60,641 bases of DNA from Thermoplasmatota archaeon (GCA_036019775.1 JAYXXD010000002.1:1-60641), one strand, 5' to 3'. Positions 33,857 to 59,500 are shown, numbered from the stretch's first letter. Numbers and translations: made by a program. The notes: generated by a model from the letters alone, not told the origin.

Positions 33857-33979
33857 TCTAAAAATTCGATGACGTCCCTCGATTTTCGCTATTCCCTCAT
33901 CGTCATTGTTAAAAGAGGGTCGAAAGTGGGCAAAACGCTCCAGCCTTGCTGCTGTCGAGCAATCCTCAGAGGGAACAAA

Positions 33980-43584: not shown

Positions 43585-44790
43585 ATGGAAGAACTGCGTG
43601 GAGTTGAGTTGCTCCCAGAACCGGGAGAACCAAAAATTCTCTCCGCTGTAGATCCTTCAACATCAGAACATGAAGGACAATGGAGAGCTGAAGTGACCGG
43701 ATGGGCGCCAGTGGTGCCCGATACGATACCATATCGTTCGAGAAGATTGTTCTCGCTTACATCTGGATTTATTTTAGCGGTTTTTCTCGGTGCCATCGTG
43801 TTGTTATGGCAATCCAACCTCTTGCTGTTGGAGTTACCACCAGCTACGTCTGAATGGGCATTTGAAGATACAGAAATTCGAACTTTGCAGGATGAAGGCC
43901 TGACTGGAGATGGTGTGAAAGTTTGCATGGTTGATACCGGCGTTTCCAAAAGTCACGCTTCTCTTGATGGTGCAGATATCACATTAAAGGATTTTTTATG
44001 CAATGCTGCCGAACCAACTGACTATGGTTCAATTGCACATGGGACGCTCATGGCAGGTATTCTTCTTTCAACTGACTTGCAGAGAGGTGTTGCTCCGAAT
44101 GTGACTCTTGGCATGGCTGCTGCATTGAAAGCCGATGGTCAGAACAACACTGGCTCGGAAGCACGAGTTGCAGATGCAATCAGGTGGTGCATTTTTGATT
44201 TCGAAGCCGATATTATTTCTCTGTCATTGGGCGGTCAGCAAGATCAATCAACATCCAGAGAAGGTCCTGCTGCCTCTGCCACTCGTCAGGCAATCGATGC
44301 TGGAATCTATGTTGTTGTTGCTGCTGGAAACGATGGAGGTTCGGGAGATGATGGTTATGTTAGTGCTCCAGGCAACGTCAACTTGGCGATCACAGTTGGT
44401 GCATCCGACCGTGTTGGAAATACGTGGTACAAATCATCACAAGGTGAACTCATAGATTCAGATGGCAACATACGAGAGTATCCTCACCAGAAGCCAGAGT
44501 TAACTGCGCCCGGTGTCAATATTCTTTCAACGGGCATGAATGATCAATGGTACACATCCAGTGGGACCTCAGATGCCACGGTCTTTGTTACGGGAGCTTT
44601 GTCGCTCATTCTTGAGGCATATCCTGAACTAAAGCCGAGGGAAGATTCCACTACAACTTGCATTGAACTCGTAAAACGTGCACTCGCAGATTCAATCAGT
44701 TCCGATTTGAGTCATGATTCTCGTTCAGGCTATGGACAATTGGATGCAAAGAAATGGAAAAACCAACTTGCTGGGAACACAGAATGCTGA
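43585..44790 (+). CDS. Membrane-anchored subtilisin-family (S8) serine protease
   Basis: Catalytic triad context VCMVDTGV (Asp), HGTLMAGIL (His), SGTSDATVFVTGA (Ser). N-terminal TM FILAVFLGAIVLLW. Confidence 0.85.
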   Translation: MEELRGVELLPEPGEPKILSAVDPSTSEHEGQWRAEVTGWAPVVPDTIPYRSRRLFSLTSGFILAVFLGAIVLLWQSNLLLLELPPATSEWAFEDTEIRTLQDEGLTGDGVKVCMVDTGVSKSHASLDGADITLKDFLCNAAEPTDYGSIAHGTLMAGILLSTDLQRGVAPNVTLGMAAALKADGQNNTGSEARVADAIRWCIFDFEADIISLSLGGQQDQSTSREGPAASATRQAIDAGIYVVVAAGNDGGSGDDGYVSAPGNVNLAITVGASDRVGNTWYKSSQGELIDSDGNIREYPHQKPELTAPGVNILSTGMNDQWYTSSGTSDATVFVTGALSLILEAYPELKPREDSTTTCIELVKRALADSISSDLSHDSRSGYGQLDAKKWKNQLAGNTEC

Positions 44791-44938
44791 TTTTGCGACG
44801 GATTATTTTGATACTCTTTCACATATTTGATATTTATAATGGTTAAATAATGATATTTTAAACAATAAATGATATTATTGGATGTGTCAATTGGGGCGCA
44901 GTATTATATTTGTTCAGTTTCTAGGTTCGGATAGAGGA
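44791..44938 (+). promoter_or_regulatory. AT-rich promoter region with TATA-like boxes and four phased TGATA(C/T)T repeats
   Basis: This is the only long AT-rich intergenic stretch in the window. TTTATAA at 44834-44840, TTTTAAA at 44857-44863. TGATACT at 44809, and TGATATT at 44829, 44852 and 44871 (spacing 20, 23, 19 bp). GAGGA at 44934-44938 precedes the start codons at 44939/44945. Confidence 0.45.
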
Positions 44939-47900
44939 ATGCACATGCAGATTGCAAATGTTGGAAAAAGCGTGGGATTGGTTGGATTACTCCTTACATC
45001 CCTAATGATCGGATTGGTTACTGTACCAACTGCGAGTGCAGTTAACGAAACATCCAGTGGTACAATCACGACAACCGAGACGTGGAGTGGTACTCACACT
45101 CTAACTGGTAACGTCACTGTTGCTGAAGGTGCGAAACTTGTCATTAATGCCGGTACGACCGTGAATATTCCTGCTGGTGCTTACATCGATGTCGAAGGAG
45201 CAATGTGTGCTGGTTCCGCTTCTTGTGGGGCTTCCCAAGGCAGTGCATCATCTCCAGTTCGATTTGAATGGGCAACACCAGCAGATTACGATGTTCTTGG
45301 CTGGTGCTTACAACAAAACAGTCAGTTCTACACAAACCCGGATGCAGGGTGCGGTTCCGGAGTTATCATTCGAAGTACTATCAACCAGGCATCGACAGGA
45401 TTGTCCTTTGTTTCGTTTAACAACGCTTACGGACACCCAGTATTAGTTCAAACTGGCCAATCCCAATCCATTCAGTATGCTACCCTGATTTTTGATGGAT
45501 CCACAACAAATGCAGATAATCTTGTATTTTCGAACATCAATACGTCTAACATTATCGCTCTTGATTTTGCAGCTCCAATCATTCGAGACTCAACATTTAC
45601 GCTCGGTGATGATGGACGAGGTTATGATGCCTCCGCAGTGCGCGCCTACGATGCAGGTGCAGGTATTTTGTCACCGTTGGTTCTCACGGGTTCGACATTC
45701 ACAGGCAATACTGAAGCTCAGTGTGGAACTTCAGGTGGAGGAAAGGCTGTAATCTATGCAGAATCATCGTACATTTCGATGGACCAACTTGATGTCAAGG
45801 AAAATGCGTATGGTGTTTTCCTCAGAGAATCATCAGGTTCTCTAGGCAACAGTACCTTCGATGTTCTTTGCAATGCAATCGACACCAACTCATTCAAATC
45901 CACAGGAAACTTCGCCCACACGCTTTACCTTGATAGCAATGATATCACCACTGAAGAGGGTGCGGGAATCACAGCATTTTCTGGAGCAATTGTTACTGCA
46001 ACGAACAATGTGATTTCAGGTGCATCGGCAGGTTCTGGATTTGGTATTCGAGACTCAACCGTTTCAGCGCATGGGAATACAGTCGGGCCGATTGAAGGGT
46101 TCAATGGTTTCTGGGTTTTCGGTCAATCAGAGGTTGAAATTGAAAACAACACCATCCAAGATACTGCAAAAGAACCCATCCAAATCGGCGAATACCACTA
46201 CAAGGATCCGAACAGCAACTATCCTCCACCTTCTGCAAATCGAGCATACATTGCCAACAACGTTATTTCAAACAATTCTGGTACATGCACCTCTCAATTC
46301 ATGTATAATGGAGATTTCACTTGCCCAGCAATCCATATCTTTTCATCTTCAGCAACAATCGTTGACAATACAGTCACCAACAACGCAGGTGATGGATTAC
46401 GAATCAAAGGATCCATTGTGAACGTCCAACGAAATACTGTTGAAGCGGGACAATTCGCTGTAAACATCAGTCACTTTGACACGATAACAGCTTCCAAGTA
46501 TGGATCGATTGGTTACTTTTCAGGAAACACTTGGACCAATGCTACGCAAGTGTACAACATCACTGAGTCACGGGTAACAGTGCAGTCGGAGTACATTCCT
46601 GATGCTGGTGGAGACTACATCTATCCAGTCATGCTTCAATGGCTTAGTGCAGAATGTCCAGATGTGACATCGGAATGTTTGTTGCTGCCAGATACAGCAG
46701 TTACCCCTCCAAGAGATATGCCTCTTGCGATTGAGTTGGTCAACAATTCAACTGTATTCTCGTTTGCAAATTTACAAAACTTCGATCCTTCAAAGATTCA
46801 TGTTCAGAACCAAAACACCGAGTGGGGGTCACAAGTCCGACAAGGTGAACTTGTTCGCTATCAGGTCAAAGCGAAGAACAGCAATGTTGCTGGCGCTACG
46901 GTGATCATTAAAGATGCAACAGGACTTCCATTGTATGAACTGACAACGGATAATTTTGGAATGACGCAACAAGTCTCACTCCCTTCCGATTTCTTGCTCG
47001 ATCGCAACTGGAATCATGCAGTGGGTGAAACTGGAGTTACTGTTCCGGGCACGAATCCAACCAACCCGACCATTTTGGATGAAGACACATGTTCTGATGG
47101 ATACGACAATGACGGTGATACGTACGTTGATGACGAAGATCCTGATTGTATTAATGGCCGAGAGCTTCCATTCTACATCGTTGAAGCTTACAAATTCGAT
47201 AAAGGCAAGAAAGATTTCGACTTCGTTCTCAGTGGTCCAATCGACGATGTCATCAATCTTGACAACTTGCGACCAAGTGTCACAGTTGAACAATACGATG
47301 GGGAATCTTTCGCCATCAATGCTGTCCTCACTGGGACTGCTTGGGATGGAGTATCGGGTCCATATCCTCTCGATGTAATCGCATACGATCGACAATTCGG
47401 TTTGATTGACCGTGTTGAGATTCAACCACCAGGCAGCACCGACTGGTACTATGCCGTTGATACCTCTGGAGCGAACGGCGAATTGACCAAGGAAAACCAT
47501 CCATTCAAGACATGGTCGTTTGATTGGGATCTATCGGCTCATCCTGATGGAGAAAGTGATGTTACATTCAGAATCCGCTCATACGATGGTCTGGATTACT
47601 CTCCAATAGAAGTGCGTAAGTTCAAACTCAATTTGGTACCTCCAACACTGTACCTCAACGAACCATTGGACGGTTCCACTCACTCAAATGGAAAGATTCT
47701 CTTCACAGGCACAGCATCCGATCCTTATTCAGGAACATGGGGGTCGGATATTCAGGATATTTGGTTTGATGTTACTGGGCCAAATGGCTACAATTCTCAC
47801 TTTGCTATCAACGGATCAATTGCTTGGGCATATGAATGGAATTTTGAGGATTTAGAAACTGGTCAATACACGTTCGAAGTTTGGGCGAGTGACAGTGACT

Positions 47901-49279
47901 TCTGTGATGATGTACAAGGGAATTGTGTTATTTCCACTCGAACTGTTAATGTGCTTAACGATAACGCCATCCCAATTGTTGATTTAATTGAACCGGATGG
48001 AACAAAAGCAGTTCGTGCCGATGCCAATACACAATTGGTGGGCTTTGCCAGCGATGGTGCTGATGGTACGATCACACGTGTAGAAATTGAGATTCTTGAT
48101 TTGGCAAGTGGACTTATCCTCAATGACGGGCCTGCTCCTGTAACGACGTTTACGAAGTCAGGTCCTGGTTATTCCTGGTCAGCAAATTGGGATACAAGCA
48201 AACTGAATCATGAAGGACAGTACGAAATTCGAGTTAAGGCATACGATGGAGAGGATTATTCCGTCGCAGATATCGTCAGAATTACCATTTCAAAACCGAC
48301 GGATGCAAACAACATACCTCCACAATTTAATGCCACAAATTGGCCGAATACGCTGACAATTTTCTGTGTTGTTGGTTCATCTTCAGAAAACCAGTGCGGT
48401 GGAGGAGTGGAACTTGATTTGACTCAGTATTTCAACGACCCGGATTCAGATGTCCTGATTATCGATTTCGTTGACGATGCAACCACTGAAGATGATGATA
48501 ATCATCCGTTCCTCATCGATATCGATATTAATGGTGTTGCAAAGTACGATCCTGCGAGCAAACAGAACAATCAAAACATCTCAAGTTGGACCATTGAAAA
48601 TGTTCGATTTATTGTCCGAGACGCTTTTGATGAATCAAAGATGTCCAGTAGCGTTACGTTCTTCGTACAAGCTGTTGAATTCAATGTTGTTCGCGATGAT
48701 CCAAATGATCCGGTGACTGCGACAAACCCTGCCGAGTTTAGTGGAACAGGTTTGCCCGGTGCAAAAATTGAAGCCCGTTCCGTCGCTTCGAAATCGCTCA
48801 TTAAGTCCGTGATTGTTGGAGATACTGGTGCTTGGTCGATGAATCTCAGTCTTCAAGATATGAATGATGCGTCAAATAACTTGATGTTCCTGATGGATGA
48901 ACAAACTTTCGGAGGAAGTTCGGAGCCTTCGTCATTTAGAGTTGAAGTTGGTGAAGTTGATGAAGGCTCAAACCTTCTGCTCATCATAGGTATCGTTGTT
49001 GCTGCTTTGATCTTGCTTGCCGGAGTTGCTTACTTCTTCGTTGAATTTGAGGAAATTGAAGATGAAGGATTTGATGCGACAACAGAGGTTGTTCAAGAAG
49101 AAGACCCTTATGCATGGGGCAAGAAAACGACCCCAGCTATCCCTCAGCAAACCGTTGCTCCAACGCCGGCTGTCCAGCCTGAAGTCGTACAACAATCCGC
49201 ACAACACCCTGGCTGGATTTGGGATCAAGAAAACAATCAATGGGTCCCTGATCCAAATTATCAACCGCCCAGCCAATAA
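44939..49279 (+). CDS. Giant tail-anchored surface protein: right-handed parallel beta-helix repeats, Cys-bracketed Asp-rich metal-binding motif, Ig-like domains, C-terminal TM and cytoplasmic tail
   Basis: About 1446 aa. The start is ATG 44939, or 44945 which has better spacing to GAGGA. Signal peptide VGLVGLLLTSLMIGLVTVPTASA. PbH1-like repeats (NNVISGASAGSGFGIRDS, NNTIQD, NNVISNNSG, DNTVTNNAGDGLRI). CSDGYDNDGDTYVDDEDPDC at 47090-47149. TM LLLIIGIVVAALILLAGVAYFFV. Confidence 0.75.
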   Translation: MHMQIANVGKSVGLVGLLLTSLMIGLVTVPTASAVNETSSGTITTTETWSGTHTLTGNVTVAEGAKLVINAGTTVNIPAGAYIDVEGAMCAGSASCGASQGSASSPVRFEWATPADYDVLGWCLQQNSQFYTNPDAGCGSGVIIRSTINQASTGLSFVSFNNAYGHPVLVQTGQSQSIQYATLIFDGSTTNADNLVFSNINTSNIIALDFAAPIIRDSTFTLGDDGRGYDASAVRAYDAGAGILSPLVLTGSTFTGNTEAQCGTSGGGKAVIYAESSYISMDQLDVKENAYGVFLRESSGSLGNSTFDVLCNAIDTNSFKSTGNFAHTLYLDSNDITTEEGAGITAFSGAIVTATNNVISGASAGSGFGIRDSTVSAHGNTVGPIEGFNGFWVFGQSEVEIENNTIQDTAKEPIQIGEYHYKDPNSNYPPPSANRAYIANNVISNNSGTCTSQFMYNGDFTCPAIHIFSSSATIVDNTVTNNAGDGLRIKGSIVNVQRNTVEAGQFAVNISHFDTITASKYGSIGYFSGNTWTNATQVYNITESRVTVQSEYIPDAGGDYIYPVMLQWLSAECPDVTSECLLLPDTAVTPPRDMPLAIELVNNSTVFSFANLQNFDPSKIHVQNQNTEWGSQVRQGELVRYQVKAKNSNVAGATVIIKDATGLPLYELTTDNFGMTQQVSLPSDFLLDRNWNHAVGETGVTVPGTNPTNPTILDEDTCSDGYDNDGDTYVDDEDPDCINGRELPFYIVEAYKFDKGKKDFDFVLSGPIDDVINLDNLRPSVTVEQYDGESFAINAVLTGTAWDGVSGPYPLDVIAYDRQFGLIDRVEIQPPGSTDWYYAVDTSGANGELTKENHPFKTWSFDWDLSAHPDGESDVTFRIRSYDGLDYSPIEVRKFKLNLVPPTLYLNEPLDGSTHSNGKILFTGTASDPYSGTWGSDIQDIWFDVTGPNGYNSHFAINGSIAWAYEWNFEDLETGQYTFEVWASDSDFCDDVQGNCVISTRTVNVLNDNAIPIVDLIEPDGTKAVRADANTQLVGFASDGADGTITRVEIEILDLASGLILNDGPAPVTTFTKSGPGYSWSANWDTSKLNHEGQYEIRVKAYDGEDYSVADIVRITISKPTDANNIPPQFNATNWPNTLTIFCVVGSSSENQCGGGVELDLTQYFNDPDSDVLIIDFVDDATTEDDDNHPFLIDIDINGVAKYDPASKQNNQNISSWTIENVRFIVRDAFDESKMSSSVTFFVQAVEFNVVRDDPNDPVTATNPAEFSGTGLPGAKIEARSVASKSLIKSVIVGDTGAWSMNLSLQDMNDASNNLMFLMDEQTFGGSSEPSSFRVEVGEVDEGSNLLLIIGIVVAALILLAGVAYFFVEFEEIEDEGFDATTEVVQEEDPYAWGKKTTPAIPQQTVAPTPAVQPEVVQQSAQHPGWIWDQENNQWVPDPNYQPPSQ

Positions 49280-49294
49280 TTCGGTTGTGATTGA

Positions 49295-51808
49295 ATGATT
49301 CCCAAACCAGGTGTTCAGGAGAAGGTGCTGCTGCATCTTCTGGATTATGCTGATTTCAAGGAAAAAGTGGAAGTTCCCTTCGCACTCTCACAGATGGGAA
49401 TTGCCAATGCTGTTGCAATTGCACGGTCAAACGTACCTCGAGCGATATCTGGTTTGAGAGATCAAGGTCTTCTTGTAGAACGACAGGCTCACGTCCATGG
49501 AGTAAGTCGGAAACGAAAAGCATACTTTCTCACGGACTCTGGTATTCTCGCAGCTGAGGAAACATGGGGCAGACTTCGGGAATTCCAATTTCGATGCATC
49601 AATGTTGATGGTGAAACGGTGTCAACTACCTTAGGGGCGGCTCATGAAGTACTCCCATTTACCATGCGTCCAGTCGATATTATTCGATATTTAGACGATA
49701 ATCTCATCCTTGATGCTCGTTCTCTTTCAGAGGATCTCATCGAACGAGATTTATCAAAACAAGTAGAGAAACAACTTGTGACATCACTGGGTGATCTACC
49801 AAGATTGCGCCATTTCTATGGGCGAGAGAAAGAATTGGATAACATGGTCAATCTTCTCGATGCTCGTGCAACAACATTGTTGGTTCCTGGTATTGCAGGA
49901 ATTGGTAAAACTACAATTGCAGCGAAACTGATTGAACGATTTATGCATCGTCGCAACCTTTTGTATCATCGTTGTCAAGACTGGGAAGGATCTCGGGCTT
50001 TATTTGAATCACTTGCTGAATGGCTACTCAACATTGGTGATTCCTCATTTGCTGATTATCTCGCAGCCACTCCAGTGCCTAAACCGGATGATGCTGCCCG
50101 AATTCTGATTGATTCTTTGGAAAACACACCAACACTCATCGTAATCGACGATTTTCACAAAGTTTCAGATCCCATACTTTTCCAAACGATTCAATCAATG
50201 ACACTCGGTTTGCTTGGTAGTGAGGAATCGATTGGTCTTGTGATTTTTTCCCGCTCATTCAAACCAGTTGTCCCAACCAAAGATGCAGAAGGAAGAATCA
50301 CCAGCCTCGTTCTTCCGCTTGATGGGCTTGACTCTGATTCAGCGCGAAATCTGCTGACTGGATTTGATGAACTCTCTACAGAGCAATGGCTGCATATTCA
50401 TGGCCTGTCCCGTGGGCATCCACTGGTCCTTGAACTCATTAATCGCGGTGCTTCTGCTGGAGCATTCCATGATACGCTCGAGCATTATGTAACCAAAGAG
50501 ATTTTTTCGAAACTTTCTGCTGAACAAAAACGTGTTCTTACAGTTCTTTCGATCTTTAGAGAAGCCGTATCTTTGGATGCATTACTCGCCCACGAATTGG
50601 ATGTCGATGTTCTCGATAGTCTTGTTGAACAGGGGCTCGCTCGACAAGTCGATACTGATGTGTATGACGTGCATGATTTGATTCGAGAATTTCTTGTAAG
50701 GAGCATCGATGATCAGACAAAACAATCGGTTCACAGCAATTGTGCAACTTATTACAGCAAATTAAGCAAATCATCAGAAACGACACTCGAACAAATTTAC
50801 CATGAACTCGCATCCGAGCATGAGCAAGAAGCAATTGAGAAAATTGTAGAGTTTGGAAGGCAACTTGTTTCGCAAGGCCACCTGGAATTGTTAAGTCTCA
50901 TTGAAAGTGTTAATCTGGAACGCCTCCATCCTTCCTTGATGGCACCGATGATGCAATTGCAAGGTGATATCCTCGTTATGCTTGGCAGGTTTGAACAGGC
51001 CTCGACTGTGTTGGATACGGCAAGTAAGGCAGCACGTGATGCAAACTTAGCAGTCGTGTACTCAGAGATTCTTGGTTCACAAGCAGATATTGCGATGAAA
51101 CAAGGTCAAACAGACAAAGCCCTCTCAGCTCACAAGGAGGCATTGGAAGTCCAAGTTGAACTCGGGGATGCTCAAGGAGCAGCTCGAACCTACAACAACA
51201 TGGGTTATCTCTATCGAAGGAAGAACAATCGAAGCAAAGCCTTGGAGGCCTATTCCGAGGTTGAAGCCATCATTATGAACGATGAAACTCTGTTGGACGC
51301 GCAAATCATTCTTGGCCGTGCACTACTCGATTTAGGAGAAGTGAATCGTGCTCGGAAGCATGCATTCGAAGCCTTTCAACGAACTGAAAAAGCGGAAAAT
51401 CTACTTGCCCATGCTCGTGCGCAAGCATTGCTTGGTCGATATCATGCAAAAATGAATGATGCTGAAACTTCCATGCACCATTATACAGAATCGCTGAATA
51501 TCATGTCCGATGTTGGTGATCCTGTATCCATGGTTGAACTTATGATTCTCTTAGGTGAAGTTCTTGAAGATAGTGGGAGGAGTGAAGAAGCTCTCGAGCG
51601 ATACAGAGAAGCACTCGTTATCGCTGAAGCAAATGATTTACGCATGCAGATAGGGGAACTTCTGTCGAAACTTGGAGGCGTTGCTCCAGACCGACAACGT
51701 CGAATGGAATACTTGCAACGAGCACTAGCAGTCTTCAGAGAACTTGGTGCTCGAACACGAATGCGTGAAGTACAATCCCAAGTACACTCGGCAATTATGG
51801 GTCGTTAG
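49295..51808 (+). CDS. STAND-type P-loop NTPase with N-terminal winged-HTH and C-terminal TPR repeats (putative signal-sensing transcription regulator)
   Basis: 837 aa. wHTH-like LSQMGIANAVAIARSNVPRAISGLRDQGLLVE. FYGREKEL lead-in, Walker A GIAGIGKTT, Walker B LIVIDDFHKV. Multiple TPR-like units (ARTYNNMGYLYRRKNNRSKALEAY, etc.). It begins 15 nt after the beta-helix giant. Confidence 0.75.
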   Translation: MIPKPGVQEKVLLHLLDYADFKEKVEVPFALSQMGIANAVAIARSNVPRAISGLRDQGLLVERQAHVHGVSRKRKAYFLTDSGILAAEETWGRLREFQFRCINVDGETVSTTLGAAHEVLPFTMRPVDIIRYLDDNLILDARSLSEDLIERDLSKQVEKQLVTSLGDLPRLRHFYGREKELDNMVNLLDARATTLLVPGIAGIGKTTIAAKLIERFMHRRNLLYHRCQDWEGSRALFESLAEWLLNIGDSSFADYLAATPVPKPDDAARILIDSLENTPTLIVIDDFHKVSDPILFQTIQSMTLGLLGSEESIGLVIFSRSFKPVVPTKDAEGRITSLVLPLDGLDSDSARNLLTGFDELSTEQWLHIHGLSRGHPLVLELINRGASAGAFHDTLEHYVTKEIFSKLSAEQKRVLTVLSIFREAVSLDALLAHELDVDVLDSLVEQGLARQVDTDVYDVHDLIREFLVRSIDDQTKQSVHSNCATYYSKLSKSSETTLEQIYHELASEHEQEAIEKIVEFGRQLVSQGHLELLSLIESVNLERLHPSLMAPMMQLQGDILVMLGRFEQASTVLDTASKAARDANLAVVYSEILGSQADIAMKQGQTDKALSAHKEALEVQVELGDAQGAARTYNNMGYLYRRKNNRSKALEAYSEVEAIIMNDETLLDAQIILGRALLDLGEVNRARKHAFEAFQRTEKAENLLAHARAQALLGRYHAKMNDAETSMHHYTESLNIMSDVGDPVSMVELMILLGEVLEDSGRSEEALERYREALVIAEANDLRMQIGELLSKLGGVAPDRQRRMEYLQRALAVFRELGARTRMREVQSQVHSAIMGR

Positions 51809-52275
51809 AACATTGGCCGATCAAGCTCGAGTGAAATCACTCCATCTTGATACACGACCCATATGGATTCAACTCCTGCGAGGTTAATCACGCCTGAGTG
51901 TGGTGCTGATGCCGTACCTGATAACGAACGTTCAGCATCCAATTCACCCTGGGCATCATGCAATATCAACAACGTATCTGTTAATTCAAGTGTAAATTGG
52001 GATTCGTCCGCCTCAGTTGCTCTCCAGTAGACTTGTTCAGCATACGATGAATTTCCAATACGGCTAGCAATATCTGTTCGTTCAATTGCATCGGACAAAT
52101 CATTCATGTTTGCGTCAATCGCTTCAACATTCCAACGTTCACGTGTTGCAGTTTCGATATCGTATATCCAGATACTAAATGCTGTCAATAGAAGGACGCC
52201 GAGCAAGAATGTGAAGACATATCCGAGTTCTGTTGCTGCAGCTTCTCGGTTCTTCTGAAGGGAGGATACTTTCAC
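51805..52275 (-). CDS. Small protein with an archaeal class III (type IV pilin-like) signal peptide
   Basis: 156 aa. N-terminus MKVSSLQKNREAAATELGYVFTFLLGVLLLTAFSIW (charged n-region, small residue, long hydrophobic helix). 4-nt overlap with the upstream gene. Confidence 0.5.
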   Translation of the reverse strand: MKVSSLQKNREAAATELGYVFTFLLGVLLLTAFSIWIYDIETATRERWNVEAIDANMNDLSDAIERTDIASRIGNSSYAEQVYWRATEADESQFTLELTDTLLILHDAQGELDAERSLSGTASAPHSGVINLAGVESIWVVYQDGVISLELDRPMF

Positions 52276-54458
52276 GCAATCACCTCAGAAACATGTGCAT
52301 CTAGGGAAGAAATTTGAAGTGAAAATTGGATTGGCTGACCCCCTGTATGCCATACAGATTCCATGGTTCCAAATCCTGGGTCTGGGACCCAACCAACATA
52401 ATCCGTCAACAGATCCAATCTGCCGGGGTAAATTGTCCAATCTTCACTCGCTTCCAATCCTTGTGTAGACGTTTGTGCAATAGCGCCACCATACGGTTCA
52501 GCCCAACCTCGTCGAACCTCGTATGCAATTTCACTCGCAAGAGAGGTACGCTTTGCTAGGGTTACTTCGACTGAAAGAGATCCTCCTCCCATCACAGAAT
52601 CGCTTGTTGGGTGCAGTGCAGGGATCGTTGCTGCAAATCGTGGCCCAGGTCCGCCACGGTCAAGTGGTGGTGCAATAACGGTCGGGTTGTATTCCGGATG
52701 ATTTGTCAAAACAGCTCCTCCACTCATTGCAACTTCCATGCCAGTGACCGAGGATTCAAATTCGTATACAAGTCGGGAAACTTGCATCACCCATGCACTT
52801 CCGATAGGGGTGTATGGCTCTTCAACAATAAGTCCGTAGAGCTCGATGTGCAAACTAGCAGGAAATGCCCCACTTTGCCATGCTTCTTGCAAATCAACGA
52901 TGCTTCGTCCACCCATGCTGGTCCAAGGCATTGTCAAATCCACCCAACCAGATGCAGTAACTCCGATTGAAACGCAACGCCTTGCACCATCATGAACTCC
53001 ATCGTGAAGTCCAATGGATCCATGGTCTGCGAATGCATACACTCCATGGCCTTGTGTGGTATTCACATAAATTGGTTCTTGGTTGACTGGTATGGTCAAT
53101 GTTTCACCGTAATTGAGAATAGTTTCGTTTTCAGTTAATGTAGATGCATTGATTGTCGTTCGGTCTCCGTTGCTACGCAGTTCCAAATCGTAGTTCTCTA
53201 AATTATTGAGATGCATGAATAATCCAGACTCCATTCCGGTATCAATCGCTCCAATTTCGTAAACTCCTGAGGGACTTTCGTCACCTGACCAAACGACCGA
53301 TATTGGCATATCACTCTGGAGAAGACTGGCCCCATCAAGACCTACAGGAGGCCAATCAGTTGTGTAACTCCCAAATTCTTCGATGGTGACGCCAGAGCCT
53401 CTCCACGTTATTGTAGCCGGTTCATTGTTTGGGTTTGAAAGGATAAGATGTCCCTCTAATGTTGGTGGGATAAATTGTGTTCCGTGTACAGAACCAGTTT
53501 GACTTCTCCAGCTTGTCACACCCTCAGTAGTTGTGGACACCATCAACTGGGCATCAGTAGTCGTTGTGAGATGAACCACTTGTGGTTTATCGAGACTGAG
53601 TGTCTTCATCCAACTCGTCCCAACGTTCAGTAAATCCGATGGGACCGAAACTTCGGTAAAGTCGCCAAATTCTCCATTGCCGTGAACCATCATCAGATCC
53701 TCAGAGACAAGGTTGAGTTGAATCGTTCCTGATGGCAACGGCAGAGCCCAGGAACGTCCTAAACCATTCGCATTTGCGTCGGTGGGGCGGACTTCTGTTG
53801 TTCCATGTTCACCTCGCATCCAATGCACGATAAGTTCCTGTGAGGCTTTAATCGCCCAGTTTTCATCATCCAAAGTCCATTTTTGGACATCATCCACAAA
53901 CAGCTCAGCCGTCTGGTCAAGAATTCCGTTTCGAATCAGGTCGACTTTGACGGGACCGAGTGGAAAACTTAGGCCTGGTTTTGTTGTCAAAATTACGCCA
54001 TCTGCCCAGGCTGGGGCTGAATAATGATGCGGTCGATCTGGTCCCAATCGAAGATCAGAAAAGCAAGCAGTCGAAGATGTGGATTCAGGGTGTCGAATTT
54101 TCAGCATATCATCATAATCCAATACGTCTCGAACTCGAAAGGAATGGTCGTCCTGCCATGTTGATGAATACCACATACCGCCTCGCATCATATCCCAAGA
54201 AAGTGTACCGTCAACAGGAGCAATTTCTTGGGTTACAACATCACCTGGCATCCCTTGCTCGCTAAGTGTTGAAGTTTGAAGATTAAACTGCATCATTTGT
54301 GCTGACATGTCATGTCGCTCAACACTTCCTTCCAATTCTTCGATGACTGGAATCATCGTGACCATCATCAAACTGATAATGGATATGACTCCCCCAAAGA
54401 GCAAGACTGTGGCGATGGCTGCAGATACTGCTTCTTCATCGCGGTGGAGTTCAATCAT
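52272..54458 (-). CDS. Large (728-aa) protein with an archaeal class III (type IV pilin-like) signal peptide
   Basis: N-terminus MIELHRDEEAVSAAIATVLLFGGVISIISLMMVTM. No other recognisable motif. 4-nt overlaps with both neighbours. Confidence 0.55.
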   Translation of the reverse strand: MIELHRDEEAVSAAIATVLLFGGVISIISLMMVTMIPVIEELEGSVERHDMSAQMMQFNLQTSTLSEQGMPGDVVTQEIAPVDGTLSWDMMRGGMWYSSTWQDDHSFRVRDVLDYDDMLKIRHPESTSSTACFSDLRLGPDRPHHYSAPAWADGVILTTKPGLSFPLGPVKVDLIRNGILDQTAELFVDDVQKWTLDDENWAIKASQELIVHWMRGEHGTTEVRPTDANANGLGRSWALPLPSGTIQLNLVSEDLMMVHGNGEFGDFTEVSVPSDLLNVGTSWMKTLSLDKPQVVHLTTTTDAQLMVSTTTEGVTSWRSQTGSVHGTQFIPPTLEGHLILSNPNNEPATITWRGSGVTIEEFGSYTTDWPPVGLDGASLLQSDMPISVVWSGDESPSGVYEIGAIDTGMESGLFMHLNNLENYDLELRSNGDRTTINASTLTENETILNYGETLTIPVNQEPIYVNTTQGHGVYAFADHGSIGLHDGVHDGARRCVSIGVTASGWVDLTMPWTSMGGRSIVDLQEAWQSGAFPASLHIELYGLIVEEPYTPIGSAWVMQVSRLVYEFESSVTGMEVAMSGGAVLTNHPEYNPTVIAPPLDRGGPGPRFAATIPALHPTSDSVMGGGSLSVEVTLAKRTSLASEIAYEVRRGWAEPYGGAIAQTSTQGLEASEDWTIYPGRLDLLTDYVGWVPDPGFGTMESVWHTGGQPIQFSLQISSLDAHVSEVIA

Positions 54459-55495
54459 CCATTCACCACCAACCTTCGAACATCGATTTCCAACGCAAGT
54501 GGTTGACCATGAGTTTCAACGGTTAAGCCATCGCTTCCGCTTGCACGTTGGTAAGGGGTAATGCCAACAAATTCTCCCAGAGTTCCTGCCGCACGGTTGA
54601 TGGTATAATCATTCAACCATATGTCGCTGTACTGGGGGTCGATGACAGAATGAAGTGTATTTGTGACTTTAATTTGAAGGTTGTATGAATTCCCCGTAAA
54701 GAGTTGAATCGGTCCGAGTGACTCTATCTTGAATCCTACATTTGGTCCATTTCCGAGTGGCTCTTCAAGCCGTACATCTGTCAATACGATTGAGAGGCGA
54801 GTCGAGCCATCAACAAGTGTGTCGAGACGCAGACGAGGCGCTTTTTCTATGGTCCAAGAGGAGGTGGGATCTTTTGAAATTCGTGCGTCGTTGATAAGTG
54901 TAATTTGATTCAATCCTCCATCAATAGCAGTACTGATGCTCATTCCTGAAAGAACGAATCTTGACCAACGATGGACATGCTGTCCAGCTGCATTGTAGAA
55001 ATCAATGATGAGAAACGACTCACTCTCTAAATTGTGGTCGATAACAATCGAATCGAAACTCGAATCAACACTAAATTCAGATGTATTTTCTGGGTTTTGG
55101 ACGGTAATCGCAGTCACGGATTCATTGAGTGCTAGAAATTCAAATGAACTCGCATTCAATTCATTGACTGTAACAACTTCATGTCTCGTTAAATCGGATG
55201 AAATCACCCATTGCTCAACGAGATTCGCTGGGTTAATCGATGATGATTTTAGCGAAAGTGCTTGTCTTGTACCTGTTCCGTCAGGAGCATCTCCTACGAC
55301 ATCTATGCGATCTTCGACACGATCGGCAATGTTACTCGCACTGTTCCAATTGGTATTATCATTGAAGGCAACAAGATATGGATTGAGGAAGACCCAGACG
55401 CCTCCCATGATTGTAATGACCATGGCAAGCATCATGATGACGCCGAGAATTTCACTCACAGCATCGTCATCATCAGTTCTGCTCTGGCGATGCAT
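54455..55495 (-). CDS. Archaeal type IV pilin-like protein (DUF1628/Pilin_N-type N-terminus)
   Basis: 346 aa. N-terminus MHRQSRTDDDDAVSEILGVIMMLAMVITIMGGVWVF matches the archaeal pilin N-terminal pattern (acidic/basic n-region, A/G-VS-x-(V/I)-(I/L)-G-V-(I/L)). A strong SD GGGGAGG lies about 6 nt upstream of the ATG. Confidence 0.6.
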   Translation of the reverse strand: MHRQSRTDDDDAVSEILGVIMMLAMVITIMGGVWVFLNPYLVAFNDNTNWNSASNIADRVEDRIDVVGDAPDGTGTRQALSLKSSSINPANLVEQWVISSDLTRHEVVTVNELNASSFEFLALNESVTAITVQNPENTSEFSVDSSFDSIVIDHNLESESFLIIDFYNAAGQHVHRWSRFVLSGMSISTAIDGGLNQITLINDARISKDPTSSWTIEKAPRLRLDTLVDGSTRLSIVLTDVRLEEPLGNGPNVGFKIESLGPIQLFTGNSYNLQIKVTNTLHSVIDPQYSDIWLNDYTINRAAGTLGEFVGITPYQRASGSDGLTVETHGQPLALEIDVRRLVVNG

Positions 55496-55561
55496 GTTGA
55501 CCTCCCCTCAACCCTCGTAGTCATTCGGCTGCATTTAGGTATTGACCTGAAGGTTACTGAT

Positions 55562-56392
55562 TCATAGCGATTCTCGTTGGATACGTTGGATAGCGTTTGT
55601 TGCAAATCCATCGCCATCACGCCGACCAATGAAGTGAGAGAATTGTGGACCATCTTGCATTGAAATGTTAATGTCGCCTTCGAACACCTCATCAATTGCA
55701 AACAAAACGGTTGATTCTGCAAGATGGGGTGCATTATTCATTTCCGAAAGATGTGTTAACGTTATGCTTCGAGTTGCATCAGTACAAACTTGACTGAGAA
55801 ATTCCCCCGTTTGAGCGTTTGACAAGTGTCCACCCCGCCCTGAAATTCTGTCCTTGAGTGATGCCGGGTATGGGCCAGACATCAATCGATTACGATCGTA
55901 ATTTGCTTCTACAGCAATATGTTGACAACCTCTGACGTGGTGAACAAGCTCATCTGTCCAACTGCCTAAATCGGTAATAATCGCTGAACGCTCACCTGCA
56001 TGGCTTGCTACAAAGGCAACATTGTCTGCCCCAGAATGGGGCACAGGGACCGGAAGCAAGGAAATCCCTTGGTTAAACTGCAGGACATCAAGAGCCTCGA
56101 AATGATGTGTTCTATCTGGCAAGAGGCCAAGTTCAGAAATGGTTCTGTGGTTCGCATAAACTGGTACGTTCCATCGCTTCTGGGCAATAAGAGCGCCTCC
56201 ACCATGGTCTCCATGGTGGTGCGTGATAACAATCGCTTCCAAGTCGTTCGGGGAGACATCGAGCATGTTCAGTCGTTTTTCTAATTGCACACCACTGAAT
56301 CCTTGGTCAACGAGGATATGGGATGAACCAGAACTGAGCAACGTAGCATTGCCACGGCTTCCAGTCCCAAGGTGTGTGATTGACATCCCCAT
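55562..56392 (-). CDS. Metallo-beta-lactamase-fold hydrolase
   Basis: Blocks THLGTGSRGNATLL and the zinc motif ITHHHGDHGGG, with later His/Asp ligands. The start was trimmed to MGMSITHLG. Confidence 0.85.
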   Translation of the reverse strand: MGMSITHLGTGSRGNATLLSSGSSHILVDQGFSGVQLEKRLNMLDVSPNDLEAIVITHHHGDHGGGALIAQKRWNVPVYANHRTISELGLLPDRTHHFEALDVLQFNQGISLLPVPVPHSGADNVAFVASHAGERSAIITDLGSWTDELVHHVRGCQHIAVEANYDRNRLMSGPYPASLKDRISGRGGHLSNAQTGEFLSQVCTDATRSITLTHLSEMNNAPHLAESTVLFAIDEVFEGDINISMQDGPQFSHFIGRRDGDGFATNAIQRIQRESL

Positions 56393-56555
56393 CTGAATCG
56401 TTACAAGGCGAACACAGGCGGATATTGAATACACCGCATAAAAACTATGATTCACGTCGATTTTCAAGATTCTGAAATTAAGCCGTGTATGAACAACGCT
56501 CCATCATTCCTATAAGCATGGAGAATAGGAGAATTTTCAGGGCGTTGGTCCGTAG

Positions 56556-59500
56556 GTGATTTTGTTGCGTAGGAGCCAGACCACATTACTTACTTCTCTT
56601 GCAGTTATCGCAGGACTGCTCTTTATGTCTCAGTTCCCAGTTATTTCGCCGGTGTCCAACATTCATCCCGACCAAACATTCGGAGAAAAGCCACCAACAA
56701 CGGACACAGATGGGGACGGAATTCCAGATGTTCACGAAAATATTTTCGAAGAATGGATTAATTTCTCAGCAGTTGATGGCCGATTGGTGACAATGCAAGG
56801 TCTGGATAAAAGCGATGCATCGGATGCTAATTTCGATACTGATCGTGATGGTTTAAACAACACAGAAGAGTATTGTTGGCCCTATCCAGACAATTGCAAC
56901 GATCCAGGTTTTTCTCGTGGATTAACAGGGACTCTTGACGATAATGGAGATCGGATGTACCTCGATCCGAGAGTTGCTGATACAGATGGCGATGGTATGC
57001 CGGATGGGTTTGAAGTCTGGATGTGTTCGCGTGCTGGAGGTTTCGATGAGTTGACTCAACGCTATGTTTGTCCTTACTTTGATCCTCTCAATGGTAGTGA
57101 TGCGACTGATGATCCTGATGATGATGGATTTGATGTGAACAGAGACGGCTTCCTTTCAGTGGCTGAACTCTTTACCTCTCCAGAGGAATACCAATACGGC
57201 ATGCCCGGTAATTTCACAACAGAACTTGATGGATTGTGGTGCTATGCGACCCTTCCTCAAGGTTCTGCGAATGAACAATGGCCTTTTATCAACAATGGGT
57301 TGAACGCCTCATTTCAAAATATTCTTTCAGCATGCACAGTAAATGCCACCGATGTAATCGGTGAAGATCTATGGCTTGGAACGGATCCACTATTGGACGA
57401 TTCCGATCGATTTAGTTGGGATGGATTTGCTGTACGTCCACTTTACCCTTCCTTCGGAGATGGGATGCCGGACGGATGGGAAGTTCATTTCGGTCTTGAT
57501 CCACTCAATCGCTCAAATGCTCTTCTCGATGGTGATAACGACGGTTGGGACGTTAACCGCGATGGTTTGGTATCAGCTGATGTTACTCGGACCGATTCTG
57601 CACTCAAACTCGGTGAAGCACTTTCGAATTTGGAAGAATTTTACATCCATAACGACGAAGGAAATACTGTTCGTTCTGGTCTGAAAGAGGTTCAACTCGG
57701 TGTCAACGAGTCCTCATTCAAGGAGTATCCTCTCACATTCAACGCCATCCCAGGCCATCTCTCTGTTATGCACCATGATGTTCGAAGCATTTTGGTTCAA
57801 GATTCCATGGCATATTACCTCACCCGATATGGTATCACAACAATGGATTATTCCGATGATACAACCAGCGATCAATGGTTTCCTCAAGGCGTTGAAGGTC
57901 ATGAAGCGATTTTCATTGAATCTGAATCAGGACCTCATTCAATCGCCATTGCAACATCTCATGGAGTTCACGTTGCAGCTCTTCAAGTGGATGGATTCAT
58001 CGAACCATTGGAGTCATGGTCATCCTCAGAATCGATCGAACTCTTCGCACTCGAGCAGCTTGCAATTGAAGGTTCGAGTCAACAGATCATCGCTTTAGGA
58101 GCAAACGGGGACGGGTTGGTCCTTGAAGTTTCAACGGGCGGATTAATTACTCAAACGTTTGAACTTGGCGTCAATTTCAAATCAGTTCTAAGCGATGACC
58201 AAATTGTTGTGACCGAGATAGAACACGGAAATGTTCCCGGAGGTGGGCTTGTTCTTTACGTCGGCACAGAACGTGGGCTCATGACGCTTGAAACTGCTAC
58301 GGGTCGAGATGATGCCAGCCCGTCTTGGAGATTTTTCTTCGATGCTAATCCATCCAATATATCCAACAAAATCGATGACTTGCGTACCCTCAACCTTGGT
58401 GCAACAGGGAACCCCGCTGAAGTTCAATCATTGGTACTTGATGGCCCAACTGAACAAAAAAACCCAACCGTTTTGTGGATTGGCACGCCATCAGGATTGC
58501 ACAAATTGAATCTCGAGTTGAACGATATGTCGTTCGGTGGTTTACTCGAACATCCTGGAAACGACGCAGATGAACTTGCTCGTTCGAACAATATTCATTC
58601 AATTTACCCGACTGGTAATGAAATTCTTGTTGGTTCATCGGCAGGGCTTTGGGTCTTAGCTGGAAATTATCTTGACGTTTACGGCTTGCAATCAAATTCT
58701 GAAATGCCTGGTGAAATTGCTTCCCTGGCAACCATTGAAAGGCAAGAAGCAACATATATCCTTGGAGGTGCAGCTCCCGGTCGTTTTGCGAATCTCGAAC
58801 TTATGGATCCTGGAGCTAATGATTCTGATAGCGATGGAATGCCGGATGGCTGGGAAATAACCTATGGTTTAGACCCTACCGATCCATGGGACGCAATGTT
58901 GGATGGTGATGTTGATGGTCTCCGCCTGAACGGCGGTACTGATTTGGACCGTTGGTGGACCAATCTTGAAGAATATCGTTACATTGCTCGAACAGACTCG
59001 GGTTTTAATTCAACTCTTCCAAATCAAAGCGATTCTGACATGGACGGGCTTCTTGATGGTGCTGAGTTCTTTGGCTATTATCTTGAGGAAACCAATTTTG
59101 ATTGCCATTATACCCCACAATTGGCTTATGTTTGTGATGAAACTCTAGGTGAGCAAGCAAGAACCACCTATGTGAATCTAAATTCTATCGACGTCGGTAC
59201 AGATCCAACGGTGCTCGATACGGACGGGGATGGTATGCCTGATGGTTGGGAGATACAGCACCGTCGATGGGTTGGAACTCAGTATAATGGTGGGAACAAC
59301 TGGTCCCTTGATCCAACCCGTGCAGAAGATGCTGCTTGGGATGCAGATCAGGATGGATTACCGAACCTTTGTGAGTACCAGTGGTCATTGGTCCGTGAAG
59401 CAGGACTTAACGGGGACCTCTTTGAGGAATTCGGTGAATCACCTGATTCCGTTGCCAGCTGGTCAATACTCGACCCAAATCTTGTCGATTCCGATGGCGA

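What the first reader, a model, noticed from the sequence alone, without database searches (positions are those of the whole stretch)
49295..55495. wHTH-STAND-TPR protein converging on an orphan operon of three class III signal peptide (pilin-like) proteins
Three minus-strand genes (54455-55495, 52272-54458, 51805-52275) are translationally coupled by 4-nt overlaps. The first is preceded by a strong SD. Each protein begins with a charged n-region followed by a small residue and a long hydrophobic helix: DDDAVSEILGVIMMLAMVITIMG, DEEAVSAAIATVLLFGGVISII and NREAAATELGYVFTFLLGVLLL. This is the hallmark of archaeal prepilin-peptidase substrates. Their sizes are 346, 728 and 156 aa, and no downstream domain is recognisable. 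No PilB/FlaI-type ATPase, PilC/FlaJ platform or prepilin peptidase lies within at least 4 kb on either side. The operon ends stop-to-stop against an 837-aa wHTH-P-loop-TPR STAND protein. This may be an uncharacterised pilin-like surface structure or a minor-pilin/tip-complex cassette, possibly under STAND control.
Basis: partly seen in the sequence, partly recalled or inferred. Interest (0 to 1): 0.7.

Follow-up and report, generated by a model that had tools for sequence, protein, structure and literature searches.

The report
Conserved pilin-like gene trio in MGII archaea
Three adjacent genes of a Marine Group II (Poseidoniales) archaeon encode surface proteins with pilin-type N-termini; they sit in an almost invariant gene block in every genome where they were found, and were seen only in lineages that also have archaellum genes, but they are probably accessory pilin-like subunits rather than a new kind of machine.

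Summary
Three overlapping minus-strand genes (P1 346 aa, P2 728 aa, P3 156 aa) each start with a charged stretch, a small residue and a long hydrophobic helix. They end stop-to-stop against an 837-aa wHTH/P-loop/TPR protein.

**Pilin character.** P1 carries the haloarchaeal pilin processing site (DAVS here, RAVS in relatives), and its orthologs hit Pfam DUF7289. P2 models confidently as a 66-residue N-terminal helix followed by novel all-beta domains. P3 is pilin-like in shape only; its -2 residue is not conserved.

**Conservation.** The host is a Poseidoniaceae (MGIIa) archaeon. The trio lies in a nearly invariant eight-gene block (about 250 loci): subtilase, giant surface protein, STAND, then P3-P2-P1-MBL hydrolase, then a giant TSP3 protein.

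**Machinery.** None lies within the window or within 10 kb in relatives. The same genomes carry flaI/flaJ on other contigs. The trio was seen only in archaellum-bearing lineages (MGIIa, MGIIb.9/.10).

**Reading.** Most likely a 1:1:1 set of accessory pilin-like subunits handled in trans by the preflagellin peptidase and archaellum-type machinery. STAND control is unsupported. The operon probably includes the upstream MBL gene.

Verdict: new variant of a known kind; moderate interest.

The parts
54455..55495 (-). P1, 346 aa: pilin-like protein with a class III-type N-terminus (MHRQSRTDDDDA|VSEILGVIMMLAMVITIMGG) and a beta-sandwich globular part
   Evidence: ORF. Pilin_N/DUF7289/TIGR02537 N-terminal hits are below cutoff. 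Orthologs carry precomputed PF23960 and JGI names such as 'flagellin-like protein'. At -2 R28/D21 and at -1 A/G in 52 orthologs, with VSE[VI]LG invariant; DAVS/RAVS are the Hfx. volcanii PilA sites. Best PDB sequence hit is Natrinema pilin PilA2, E=0.05. AF2 beta core 82-280 is good, N-terminus low confidence.
52272..54458 (-). P2, 728 aa: giant pilin-like protein (HRDEEA|VSAAIATVLLFGGVISIISL) with a 66-residue N-terminal helix followed by all-beta domains
   Evidence: ORF. AF2 pLDDT 87.3, pTM 0.85, helix 3-68 then strands. No global PDB fold match, TMq<=0.12, and no PDB sequence match. Narrow family: 111 hits among 1.84e9 cluster representatives, about 14 of them full-length. -2 is D/E in 43/53 orthologs. 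N-terminal helix and residues 561-720 are the most conserved parts.
51805..52275 (-). P3, 156 aa (GTG start): small protein with a pilin-like N-terminus (QKNREA|AATELGYVFTFLLGVLLLTA)
   Evidence: ORF. No Pfam, NCBIfam or PDB match. AATELGY and the helix are invariant. -2 is charged in only 28/56 orthologs and is W/V in MGIIb. 994 relatives, all hypothetical proteins.
55500..55505 (-). Shine-Dalgarno GGAGGT, 4 nt upstream of the P1 ATG
   Evidence: Sequence. Conserved in the window's clade.
55508..55534 (-). Eight-codon mini-ORF (MQPNDYEG*) from the conserved upstream SD+ATG. In other clades this ATG is the in-frame start of the 359-361-aa form of P1; in the window a TGA closes it.
55562..56467 (-). 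MBL-fold metallo-hydrolase (ORF 301 aa; likely start at M26/M28, about 275 aa; cytoplasmic). Always directly upstream of P1 on the same strand, so it is the probable first gene of the operon.
   Evidence: Lactamase_B/Lactamase_B_2. Only generic MBL relatives. Present next to P1 in 208/209 loci. Gap to P1 is 60 nt or less in 112/153 loci and overlapping in 13; 66 nt in the window.
49295..51808 (+). 837-aa wHTH / P-loop (AAA_16) / TPR STAND-type protein, convergent on P3. It starts 15 nt after the stop of the 1465-aa surface-protein gene.
   Evidence: Adjacent to P3 in 202/202 loci. It is the most conserved gene of the block (47-95% identity).
43585..49279 (+). Context: subtilase S8 (43585-44790) and a 1465-aa beta-helix/Ig-domain surface protein with a C-terminal TM anchor (44882-49279). 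Both are on the STAND strand and are always present in the block.
56556..60641 (+). Context: giant TSP3-repeat surface protein, divergent from the MBL gene. It runs off the window end; orthologs are 1893-1960 aa.

Best explanation
MBL-P1-P2-P3 is a conserved operon of Poseidoniales. Its last three products are type IV pilin-like (class III signal peptide) surface proteins.

Inferred mechanism: the three are inserted by Sec with the N-terminal helix in the membrane. P1 and P2, and possibly P3, are trimmed after the [DER]-[AG] site by the genome's preflagellin/prepilin peptidase (FlaK/ArlK-type). Their near-invariant alpha1 helices then bundle into a roughly 1:1:1 heterotrimer, as the translational coupling suggests. 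This heterotrimer is taken up by a type IV filament machine encoded elsewhere. The only such machine reported in these genomes is the archaellum ArlI/ArlJ.

The complex would act as an accessory (priming, tip or base) module rather than as the bulk filament, with the 728-aa P2 exposing variable beta-domains to the outside (adhesion or recognition).

Shown: the gene structure, the N-terminal motifs and their conservation, the P2 fold class, the block synteny, and the co-occurrence with fla genes in the same genomes.

Inferred: cleavage, heterotrimer formation, use of the archaellum machinery, and the adhesive role.

The STAND protein is a neighbour of unknown relevance.
For: 1. P1's site DAVS/RAVS followed by SE[VI]LGV and its helix match the FlaFind-predicted sites of Hfx. 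volcanii PilA1-6. Orthologs hit PF23960/DUF7289 and are named flagellin-like by JGI. The top PDB sequence hit is the N-terminus of a solved haloarchaeal pilin.
2. The P2 AF2 model (pLDDT 87, pTM 0.85) has a 66-residue N-terminal helix followed by beta domains, which is the pilin layout.
3. The helices are near-invariant while the globular parts diverge to 28-45% identity. This is the conservation pattern expected of subunits that pack through alpha1.
4. The -4/-1 nt stop/start overlaps are kept at 130/132 and 121/132 loci.
5. Twelve MAGs that carry the trio have flaI/flaJ/archaellins on another contig, and UBA124 is also scored flaI/flaJ positive. These include SAT95 and UBA124 from the window's own subclade.
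6. All 13 MGIIb MAGs of Tully's set that carry the trio are in the archaellum-bearing subclades 9/10. None of about 35 MAGs of subclades 11-17 appears among the loci. FlaK is annotated in 0.90 of MGIIa and 0.16 of MGIIb genomes.
Against: - No HMM match of the window's own proteins reaches a curated cutoff.
- P3's -2 residue is not conserved.
- The simple motif rule has about a 5% background among window ORFs.
- No major pilin is encoded with the trio, and nothing shows filament incorporation.
- Foldseek finds no similarity to known pilins or minor-pilin complexes.
- The P1 N-terminus is modelled with low confidence.
- Co-distribution with the archaellum is not specific. The same lineages also have larger genomes and other traits lost in MGIIb.11-17. 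The negative result rests on pattern-based scans of species representatives only.
- Sequons are not enriched.
Confidence: 0.5

Rival explanations
1. Signal-anchored envelope complex. The N-termini are uncleaved membrane anchors of pilin ancestry. P1-P3 form a fixed cell-surface complex that works with the neighbouring envelope genes (giant AglB oligosaccharyltransferase, subtilase, giant beta-helix and TSP3 adhesins), independently of any type IV filament machine.
For: - The trio is embedded in an invariant envelope-gene block.
- P3 fails the -2 rule in half of the orthologs.
- No major pilin or machinery is linked.
- P2 is far larger than known filament subunits.
- The motif rule alone is unspecific.
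Against: - P1 carries a canonical archaeal pilin processing site and DUF7289/Pilin_N-type similarity.
- Invariance of the residues immediately around the putative cleavage site ([AG]-V-S) is hard to explain for a plain anchor.
- The trio was seen only in lineages that have FlaK and the fla operon.
Confidence: 0.27
2. STAND-controlled module. The wHTH-STAND-TPR protein senses a signal and transcriptionally controls the trio.
For: STAND is adjacent and convergent to P3 in 202/202 loci and is the best-conserved gene of the block. It has an N-terminal wHTH and MalT/AfsR-like TPR architecture.
Against: - Adjacency is not discriminating, because all eight genes are equally invariant.
- STAND lies 15 nt downstream of the 1465-aa surface-protein gene on the opposite strand from the trio, so it is more naturally linked to that unit.
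- No shared operator was sought or found.
- The HTH hits are below cutoff.
Confidence: 0.15
3. Archaellum accessory proteins of the FlaF/FlaG type (stator or anchor) that have moved out of the fla operon.
For: JGI names some P1 orthologs 'FlaG/FlaF family flagellin'. The proteins have an N-terminal helix plus beta-sandwich. They co-distribute with the fla operon.
Against: No Pfam or NCBIfam FlaF/FlaG match. Tully reports FlaG within the MGII fla operon itself. The JGI name probably reflects only the N-terminal segment.
Confidence: 0.08
4. AVAST type 1-like anti-phage system (MBL Avs1a plus STAND Avs1b) with the trio as cargo or bystander.
For: An MBL-fold protein and a STAND-TPR NTPase flank the trio. 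There are weak Avs1a hits (NCBIfam E=1.1e-4, PADLOC E=6e-4).
Against: The hits are local, generic and far below cutoffs. STAND has no PADLOC Avs match. The block is an invariant, vertically inherited core locus in about 250 loci with up to 95% STAND identity, unlike defence islands. The two genes are on opposite strands, separated by three genes.
Confidence: 0.02

Closest known systems
Haloferax volcanii adhesion pilins PilA1-6 (Pilin_N/DUF1628 type; PMC4371748) and the solved Natrinema pilin PilA2 (PDB 8gi2)
   Same: Class III signal peptide with a DAVS/RAVS site before a highly conserved H-domain. The genes are not linked to pilB/pilC. Processing is by a shared prepilin peptidase. P1's N-terminus aligns to 8gi2.
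   Different: PilA proteins are small (about 150 aa), mutually paralogous major pilins that each support pilus formation. P1-P3 are three non-paralogous proteins of 156-728 aa, with no evidence of forming a filament. The window's P1 is below the Pilin_N cutoff.
Bacterial minor-pilin/pseudopilin priming or tip complexes (GspI-J-K of T2SS; PilV-W-X-(Y1) of T4aP; TadE-F-G of Tad pili). This comparison rests on my own knowledge.
   Same: Several different pilin-like proteins of graded size, one of them large, co-expressed in fixed stoichiometry and thought to bundle through their N-terminal helices.
   Different: No sequence or fold similarity detected. The site is of the archaeal type. The genes are encoded away from any machinery or major pilin. 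The operon starts with a cytoplasmic MBL hydrolase.
Methanococcus maripaludis Epd minor pilins and 'standalone pilins' (PMC3875500; 2026 TFF preprint 10.64898/2026.04.22.720090)
   Same: Archaeal class III proteins, some encoded at separate loci, that act with a machine encoded elsewhere.
   Different: Epd pilins carry the EppA-type +1 Gln site, which is absent here. No homology.
Pfam DUF7289 (PF23960)
   Same: Many P1 orthologs have a precomputed PF23960 hit. The window's P1 and P2 match its first roughly 60-75 positions.
   Different: The window proteins score 15.8 and 16.6 bits against a cutoff of 27. The family is uncharacterised, and no paper in the library mentions it.
MalT/AfsR-type STAND regulators (for the 837-aa neighbour)
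   Same: wHTH, AAA_16 P-loop NTPase and TPR sensor architecture; NCBIfam local matches to MalT and AfsR.
   Different: All matches are far below the equivalog cutoffs. The DNA-binding domain is N-terminal and only weakly recognised. The target genes are unknown.

Membership tests
Archaeal type IV pilin-like proteins (class III signal peptide substrates) | G/A/S at -1 and a charged residue at -2, with the site placed BEFORE the hydrophobic H-domain near the N-terminus (rule as stated in PMC4371748) | tested here: met
   Window sequences: P1 D-A|VSE, P2 E-A|VSA, P3 E-A|AAT, each followed by 20 or more hydrophobic residues. Across orthologs the -2 residue is charged in 49/52 (P1), 43/53 (P2) and only 28/56 (P3). 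The rule also fires on 4/87 other window ORFs.
Archaeal type IV pilin-like proteins (class III signal peptide substrates) | Profile match to Pilin_N (PF07790) or arch_flag_Nterm (TIGR02537) at the curated cutoff | tested here: not met
   P1: 19.2 bits vs 25.2, and 14.7 vs 20. P2 and P3: no hit. Related evidence: many P1 orthologs have a precomputed PF23960 hit.
Archaeal type IV pilin-like proteins (class III signal peptide substrates) | Long N-terminal alpha-helix followed by a beta-rich globular domain | tested here: met
   P2 is confident (helix 3-68, then strands; pLDDT 87). P1's beta core is good but its N-terminus is low confidence.
Archaeal type IV pilin-like proteins (class III signal peptide substrates) | A class III signal peptidase and an ATPase/platform pair present in the same genome | tested here: inconclusive
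   These cannot be seen for the window's own genome. They are absent from the 60-kb window. In 12 relatives carrying the trio, flaI/flaJ are on other contigs, and FlaK is annotated in 0.90 of MGIIa genomes (Tully 2019 supplement).
Archaeal type IV pilin-like proteins (class III signal peptide substrates) | Actual cleavage by the peptidase and incorporation into a filament | not testable with these tools
   This needs proteomics, heterologous expression or imaging.
Minor-pilin / tip (priming) complex | Three or more distinct pilin-like proteins co-expressed as a unit | tested here: met
   The 4-nt overlaps are conserved. The three are not paralogs beyond the N-terminus.
Minor-pilin / tip (priming) complex | Encoded with, or shown to act with, a major pilin and its machinery | tested here: not met
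   No pilin, archaellin, ATPase or platform gene lies within the window or within +/-10 kb in about 250 loci.
Minor-pilin / tip (priming) complex | Structural similarity of the globular domains to known minor pilins | tested here: not met
   Foldseek against the PDB gives only generic jelly-roll/Ig/FN3 local hits. TMq is at most 0.12 for P2 and at most 0.19 for P1.
STAND NTPase regulator (837-aa neighbour) | P-loop NTPase of the AAA_16/STAND type plus a C-terminal repeat sensor | tested here: met
   AAA_16 39.1 bits (cutoff 32.6), TPR_12 74.5 bits, nSTAND6/nSTAND3 weak.
STAND NTPase regulator (837-aa neighbour) | Recognised DNA-binding domain | tested here: inconclusive
   HTH_Crp_2 22.6 bits (cutoff 27), PadR weak.
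FlaF/FlaG archaellum accessory proteins | Profile match to FlaF/FlaG and a position in the fla operon | tested here: not met
   No such Pfam or NCBIfam hit. The trio lies on a different contig from the fla operon in 12 MAGs.
AVAST type 1 (Avs1a MBL + Avs1b STAND) | Specific profile matches to Avs1a and Avs1b; adjacent genes; patchy distribution | tested here: not met
   Avs1a 17.1 bits, local only. No Avs1b hit. The locus is invariant across the clade.

The most novel reading that the evidence does not exclude
The MBL-P1-P2-P3 operon specifies a so far unrecognised surface appendage component of Marine Group II archaea. This would be a heterotrimeric, archaellum-machinery-dependent cap or adhesive tip (or a separate short pilus primed by the trio), whose 728-aa subunit of novel fold mediates attachment to particles or algae. 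The flanking STAND regulator and giant glycosylating and adhesin genes would form one coordinated 'attachment island'. This would mean the archaellum-type machine of the ocean's most abundant surface archaea assembles more than archaellins.
Probability: 0.2. Interest if true: 0.7.

Novelty: new variant of a known kind. Interest (0 to 1): 0.45.

Why it matters
Marine Group II archaea are the most abundant planktonic archaea in surface oceans and remain uncultured. How they attach to particles and phytoplankton is inferred only from archaellum, flotillin and thrombospondin genes (Rinke 2018; Tully 2019); in those two papers text searches for pili/pilins found no discussion of them.

A strictly conserved trio of pilin-like proteins gives concrete candidates for the attachment apparatus. 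One of the three is a 728-aa protein of novel fold. The trio was seen only in the archaellum-bearing lineages. The resulting prediction, dependence on FlaK/ArlI/ArlJ, can be tested with existing genomes, metaproteomes and haloarchaeal expression hosts.

It also adds two unannotated families (P2, P3) to the archaeal class-III protein repertoire. If the trio turns out to be a plain membrane-anchored complex, the result is of local interest only.

Tried and rejected
- **Locus-derived orthologs in structure prediction:** Solved by using P-ids.
- **N-glycosylation sequon enrichment** as a sign of surface exposure: not enriched (3, 3 and 1 sequons against 4.2, 3.7 and 0.9 expected).
- **Foldseek of P2 and P1 against the PDB:** only generic beta-sandwich hits.
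- **PDB profile searches for P2 and P3:** nothing.
- **hhalign among the three proteins:** similarity only in the first roughly 40 residues, so they are not recent paralogs.
- **Conserved motif upstream of P1** as a candidate promoter or operator: it is the SD plus start codon of the longer P1 form.
- **Literature search for DUF7289:** no paper.
- **Looking up ARS80 and RS368 in Tully's tables:** not in that data set.
- **MGIIb-specific scan:** it chose over-specific patterns and returned only 19 loci.
- **Metagenome scan with P0131:** nothing found, so its lineage remains unplaced.
- **AVAST-type defence reading:** tested with PADLOC and rejected.

Full report
**Observation.** The ORF table confirms three minus-strand genes: P1 54455-55495 (346 aa), P2 52272-54458 (728 aa) and P3 51805-52275 (156 aa, GTG start). 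Each junction overlaps by 4 nt. An 837-aa plus-strand ORF (49295-51808) shares its last 4 nt with the end of P3. GGAGGT lies 4 nt upstream of the P1 ATG. The 837-aa protein has AAA_16 above cutoff, strong TPR matches and weak HTH matches, and local similarity to MalT/AfsR. The globular parts of P1-P3 have no Pfam, NCBIfam or PDB sequence match.

**Source and surroundings.** The window is archaeal (CDP-archaeol synthase, ThiN). Homologs are named Candidatus Poseidoniaceae/Poseidoniales, so the source is Marine Group II. No secretion ATPase, platform protein or A24 peptidase is encoded anywhere in the 60 kb. The region from 33.8 kb to the window end is an envelope island. It holds:
- a 3219-aa protein with STT3 and AglB-core domains;
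- a subtilase;
- a 1465-aa beta-helix/Ig surface protein with a C-terminal anchor;
- the STAND gene;
- the trio;
- an MBL-fold hydrolase;
- a TSP3-repeat giant protein that runs off the window end, followed in relatives by a further 1800-aa gene.

[quoted passage not shown] It lists DAVS and RAVS as the FlaFind-predicted sites of Haloferax volcanii PilA1-6 (PMC4371748).

- *P1* has DAVS in the window. Across 52 orthologs it has R (28) or D (21) at -2, A/G at -1, and an invariant VSE[VI]LG plus helix. The window's P1 hits Pilin_N, DUF7289 and TIGR02537 only below cutoff. However, many orthologs carry a precomputed PF23960 hit and JGI names such as 'flagellin-like protein'. The best PDB sequence match of the P1 profile is the N-terminus of the solved Natrinema pilin PilA2 (E=0.05).
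- *P2* has E/D at -2 in 43/53 orthologs and keeps [DEK][AG]|[VA][STN] in the most divergent members.
- *P3* passes in the window (E-A|AAT), but its -2 residue is charged in only 28/56 orthologs and is W or V in MGIIb.

A bare motif rule also fires on 4 of 87 other window ORFs. The argument therefore rests on the combination of motif, profile hits, conservation pattern and fold. The three proteins resemble each other only in the first roughly 40 residues.

**Structure.** With a 20-sequence alignment spanning 27-82% identity, AlphaFold2 models P2 at pLDDT 87.3 and pTM 0.85. It has one 66-residue N-terminal helix (residues 3-68) followed by about 45 beta strands. Foldseek against the PDB gives only local jelly-roll/cupin/C1q-type matches, with query TM of 0.12 or less. 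The arrangement therefore has no solved relative. P1 models less well (pLDDT 65). Its beta core (82-280) is confident, with generic Ig/FN3 matches only, and its N-terminus is not confident. In P2 the N-terminal helix and residues 561-720 are the most conserved parts and the middle is variable.

**Distribution and synteny.** P2 is a narrow family. It has 111 hits among 1.84 billion cluster representatives; about 14 are full-length, all are 715-768 aa, and identity goes down to about 30%. Pattern scans found relatives in 285 species-level genomes, in further MGIIb genomes and in metagenome contigs.

Over about 256 loci (an upper bound on distinct ones), the neighbours are found wherever the contig has room:

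| Neighbour | Found / loci with room |
|---|---|
| P3 | 238/239 |
| P1 | 222/223 |
| MBL | 208/209 |
| STAND | 202/202 |
| 1465-aa protein | 155/155 |
| subtilase | 144/144 |

The block is intact even in the most divergent lineage (P0146: STAND 47%, P2 31% identity to the window). The stop/start overlaps are kept at 130/132 and 121/132 junctions. Because every gene of the block is equally invariant, adjacency to STAND carries no specific information. STAND starts 15 nt after the 1465-aa gene and so belongs to the convergent unit. By contrast, the MBL gene lies 60 nt or less upstream of P1 in 112/153 loci and overlaps it in 13. The operon is therefore probably MBL-P1-P2-P3. The MBL protein is a generic, apparently cytoplasmic MBL-fold hydrolase.

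**Where is the machinery?** Rinke et al. report the archaellum operon in all Poseidoniaceae genera and in half of the Thalassarchaeaceae genera (PMC6461757). Tully et al. report it in all MGIIa subclades and in MGIIb.9.10 and .14 (PMC6336850). Text searches of these two papers for pili/pilins found no discussion of them.

Tully's Supplementary Table 3 lists flaI, flaJ and archaellins, with contig accessions, for MAGs that also appear in my loci. In SAT95, NAT37, RS406, ARS60, TMED99, SAT1329, IN1222, NAT150, SAT218, SAT165, SP338 and RS348, the fla operon is on a different contig from the trio. SAT95 and UBA124 (which is scored flaI/flaJ positive without a contig accession) share 78-80% P2 identity with the window and belong to subclade MGIIa.5.

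All 13 MGIIb MAGs of Tully's set that carry the trio are in subclades 9 or 10. None of about 35 MAGs of subclades 11-17 listed in Supplementary Table 2 appears among 228 loci. A comparative table gives FlaK in 0.90 versus 0.16, flaB in 0.86 versus 0.26 and flaH in 0.86 versus 0.29 of two genome groups. The group sizes fit MGIIa versus MGIIb, but I did not read the header.

So the trio was seen only where the archaellum machinery and its peptidase occur. There are caveats. The scans are pattern-based, cover only species representatives and were truncated at 80 loci. The same lineages also differ in genome size and other traits.

**Interpretation.** The best-supported reading (confidence about 0.5) is a set of accessory type IV pilin-like proteins, made in fixed proportion and processed and assembled in trans by the preflagellin peptidase and the archaellum-type machine, with P2 as the exposed module. 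The main rival (about 0.27) is a membrane-anchored envelope complex of pilin ancestry that does not enter a filament. STAND control is possible but has no specific support (about 0.15). A FlaF/FlaG-type role is unlikely. An AVAST-like defence role is nearly excluded.

**Comparison with what is known.** Pilin genes unlinked to machinery, and genomes with dozens of class-III proteins of unknown role, are well known in archaea (47 FlaFind positives in H. volcanii). A 2026 census of archaeal type IV filament systems also notes standalone pilins. What is new here:
- the particular architecture: an MBL hydrolase plus three non-paralogous pilin-like proteins, one of them a 728-aa protein of novel fold;
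- its strict conservation in MGII;
- its apparent co-distribution with the archaellum.

I rate it a new variant of a known kind, of moderate interest.

Noticed in passing
window 33869-43528 (+): A 3219-aa ORF combines STT3 (residues 437-840) and AglB-core domains with two CarboxypepD_reg domains and about 2000 further residues. It is a giant oligosaccharyltransferase fusion, conserved (3181 aa) in relatives, two genes upstream of STAND on the same strand.
   Followed up: partly
window 55508-55534 (-): The SD+ATG used as the P1 start in most clades (359-361-aa forms) is present in the window. A TGA closes the frame after 8 codons, leaving a mini-ORF (MQPNDYEG*) that ends inside the SD region of the real P1 start. 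It may be a uORF or simply a start-site shift.
   Followed up: partly
L021, L025, L047 (between the MBL stop and the P1 start): A G/C-rich hairpin (for example CACCCCCCTA-TGGGGGGGTG) sits directly after the MBL stop in one MGIIa clade and is absent from the window's clade. It could be a terminator, an attenuator or an RNA-stability element inside the putative operon.
   Followed up: no
window 17998-22953 (-): A 1651-aa protein with six lamin-tail domains (E=4e-73) and two PLD-type phosphodiesterase domains. It is possibly a large secreted or anchored nuclease/phospholipase-like enzyme.
   Followed up: no
L008, L019, L096, L200: Contigs carrying this archaeal block sit in GTDB species genomes titled Salipiger bermudensis, Rhodobiaceae bacterium, Verrucomicrobiales bacterium and Salinimicrobium sp. 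These are most likely binning contamination or mislabelled MAGs.
   Followed up: no
window 51805-51808: The STAND and P3 coding regions overlap tail-to-tail by 4 nt, with no room for a terminator between them, so convergent transcripts must overlap. In distant lineages there is a gap of about 5-30 nt instead.
   Followed up: partly
P0131, P0126, P0134, P0122 (P2 relatives): Several divergent full-length P2 cluster representatives (31-43% identity to anything in the species genomes) could not be placed in any genome or JGI metagenome contig. The lineages that carry them, and their gene context, are unknown.
   Followed up: partly
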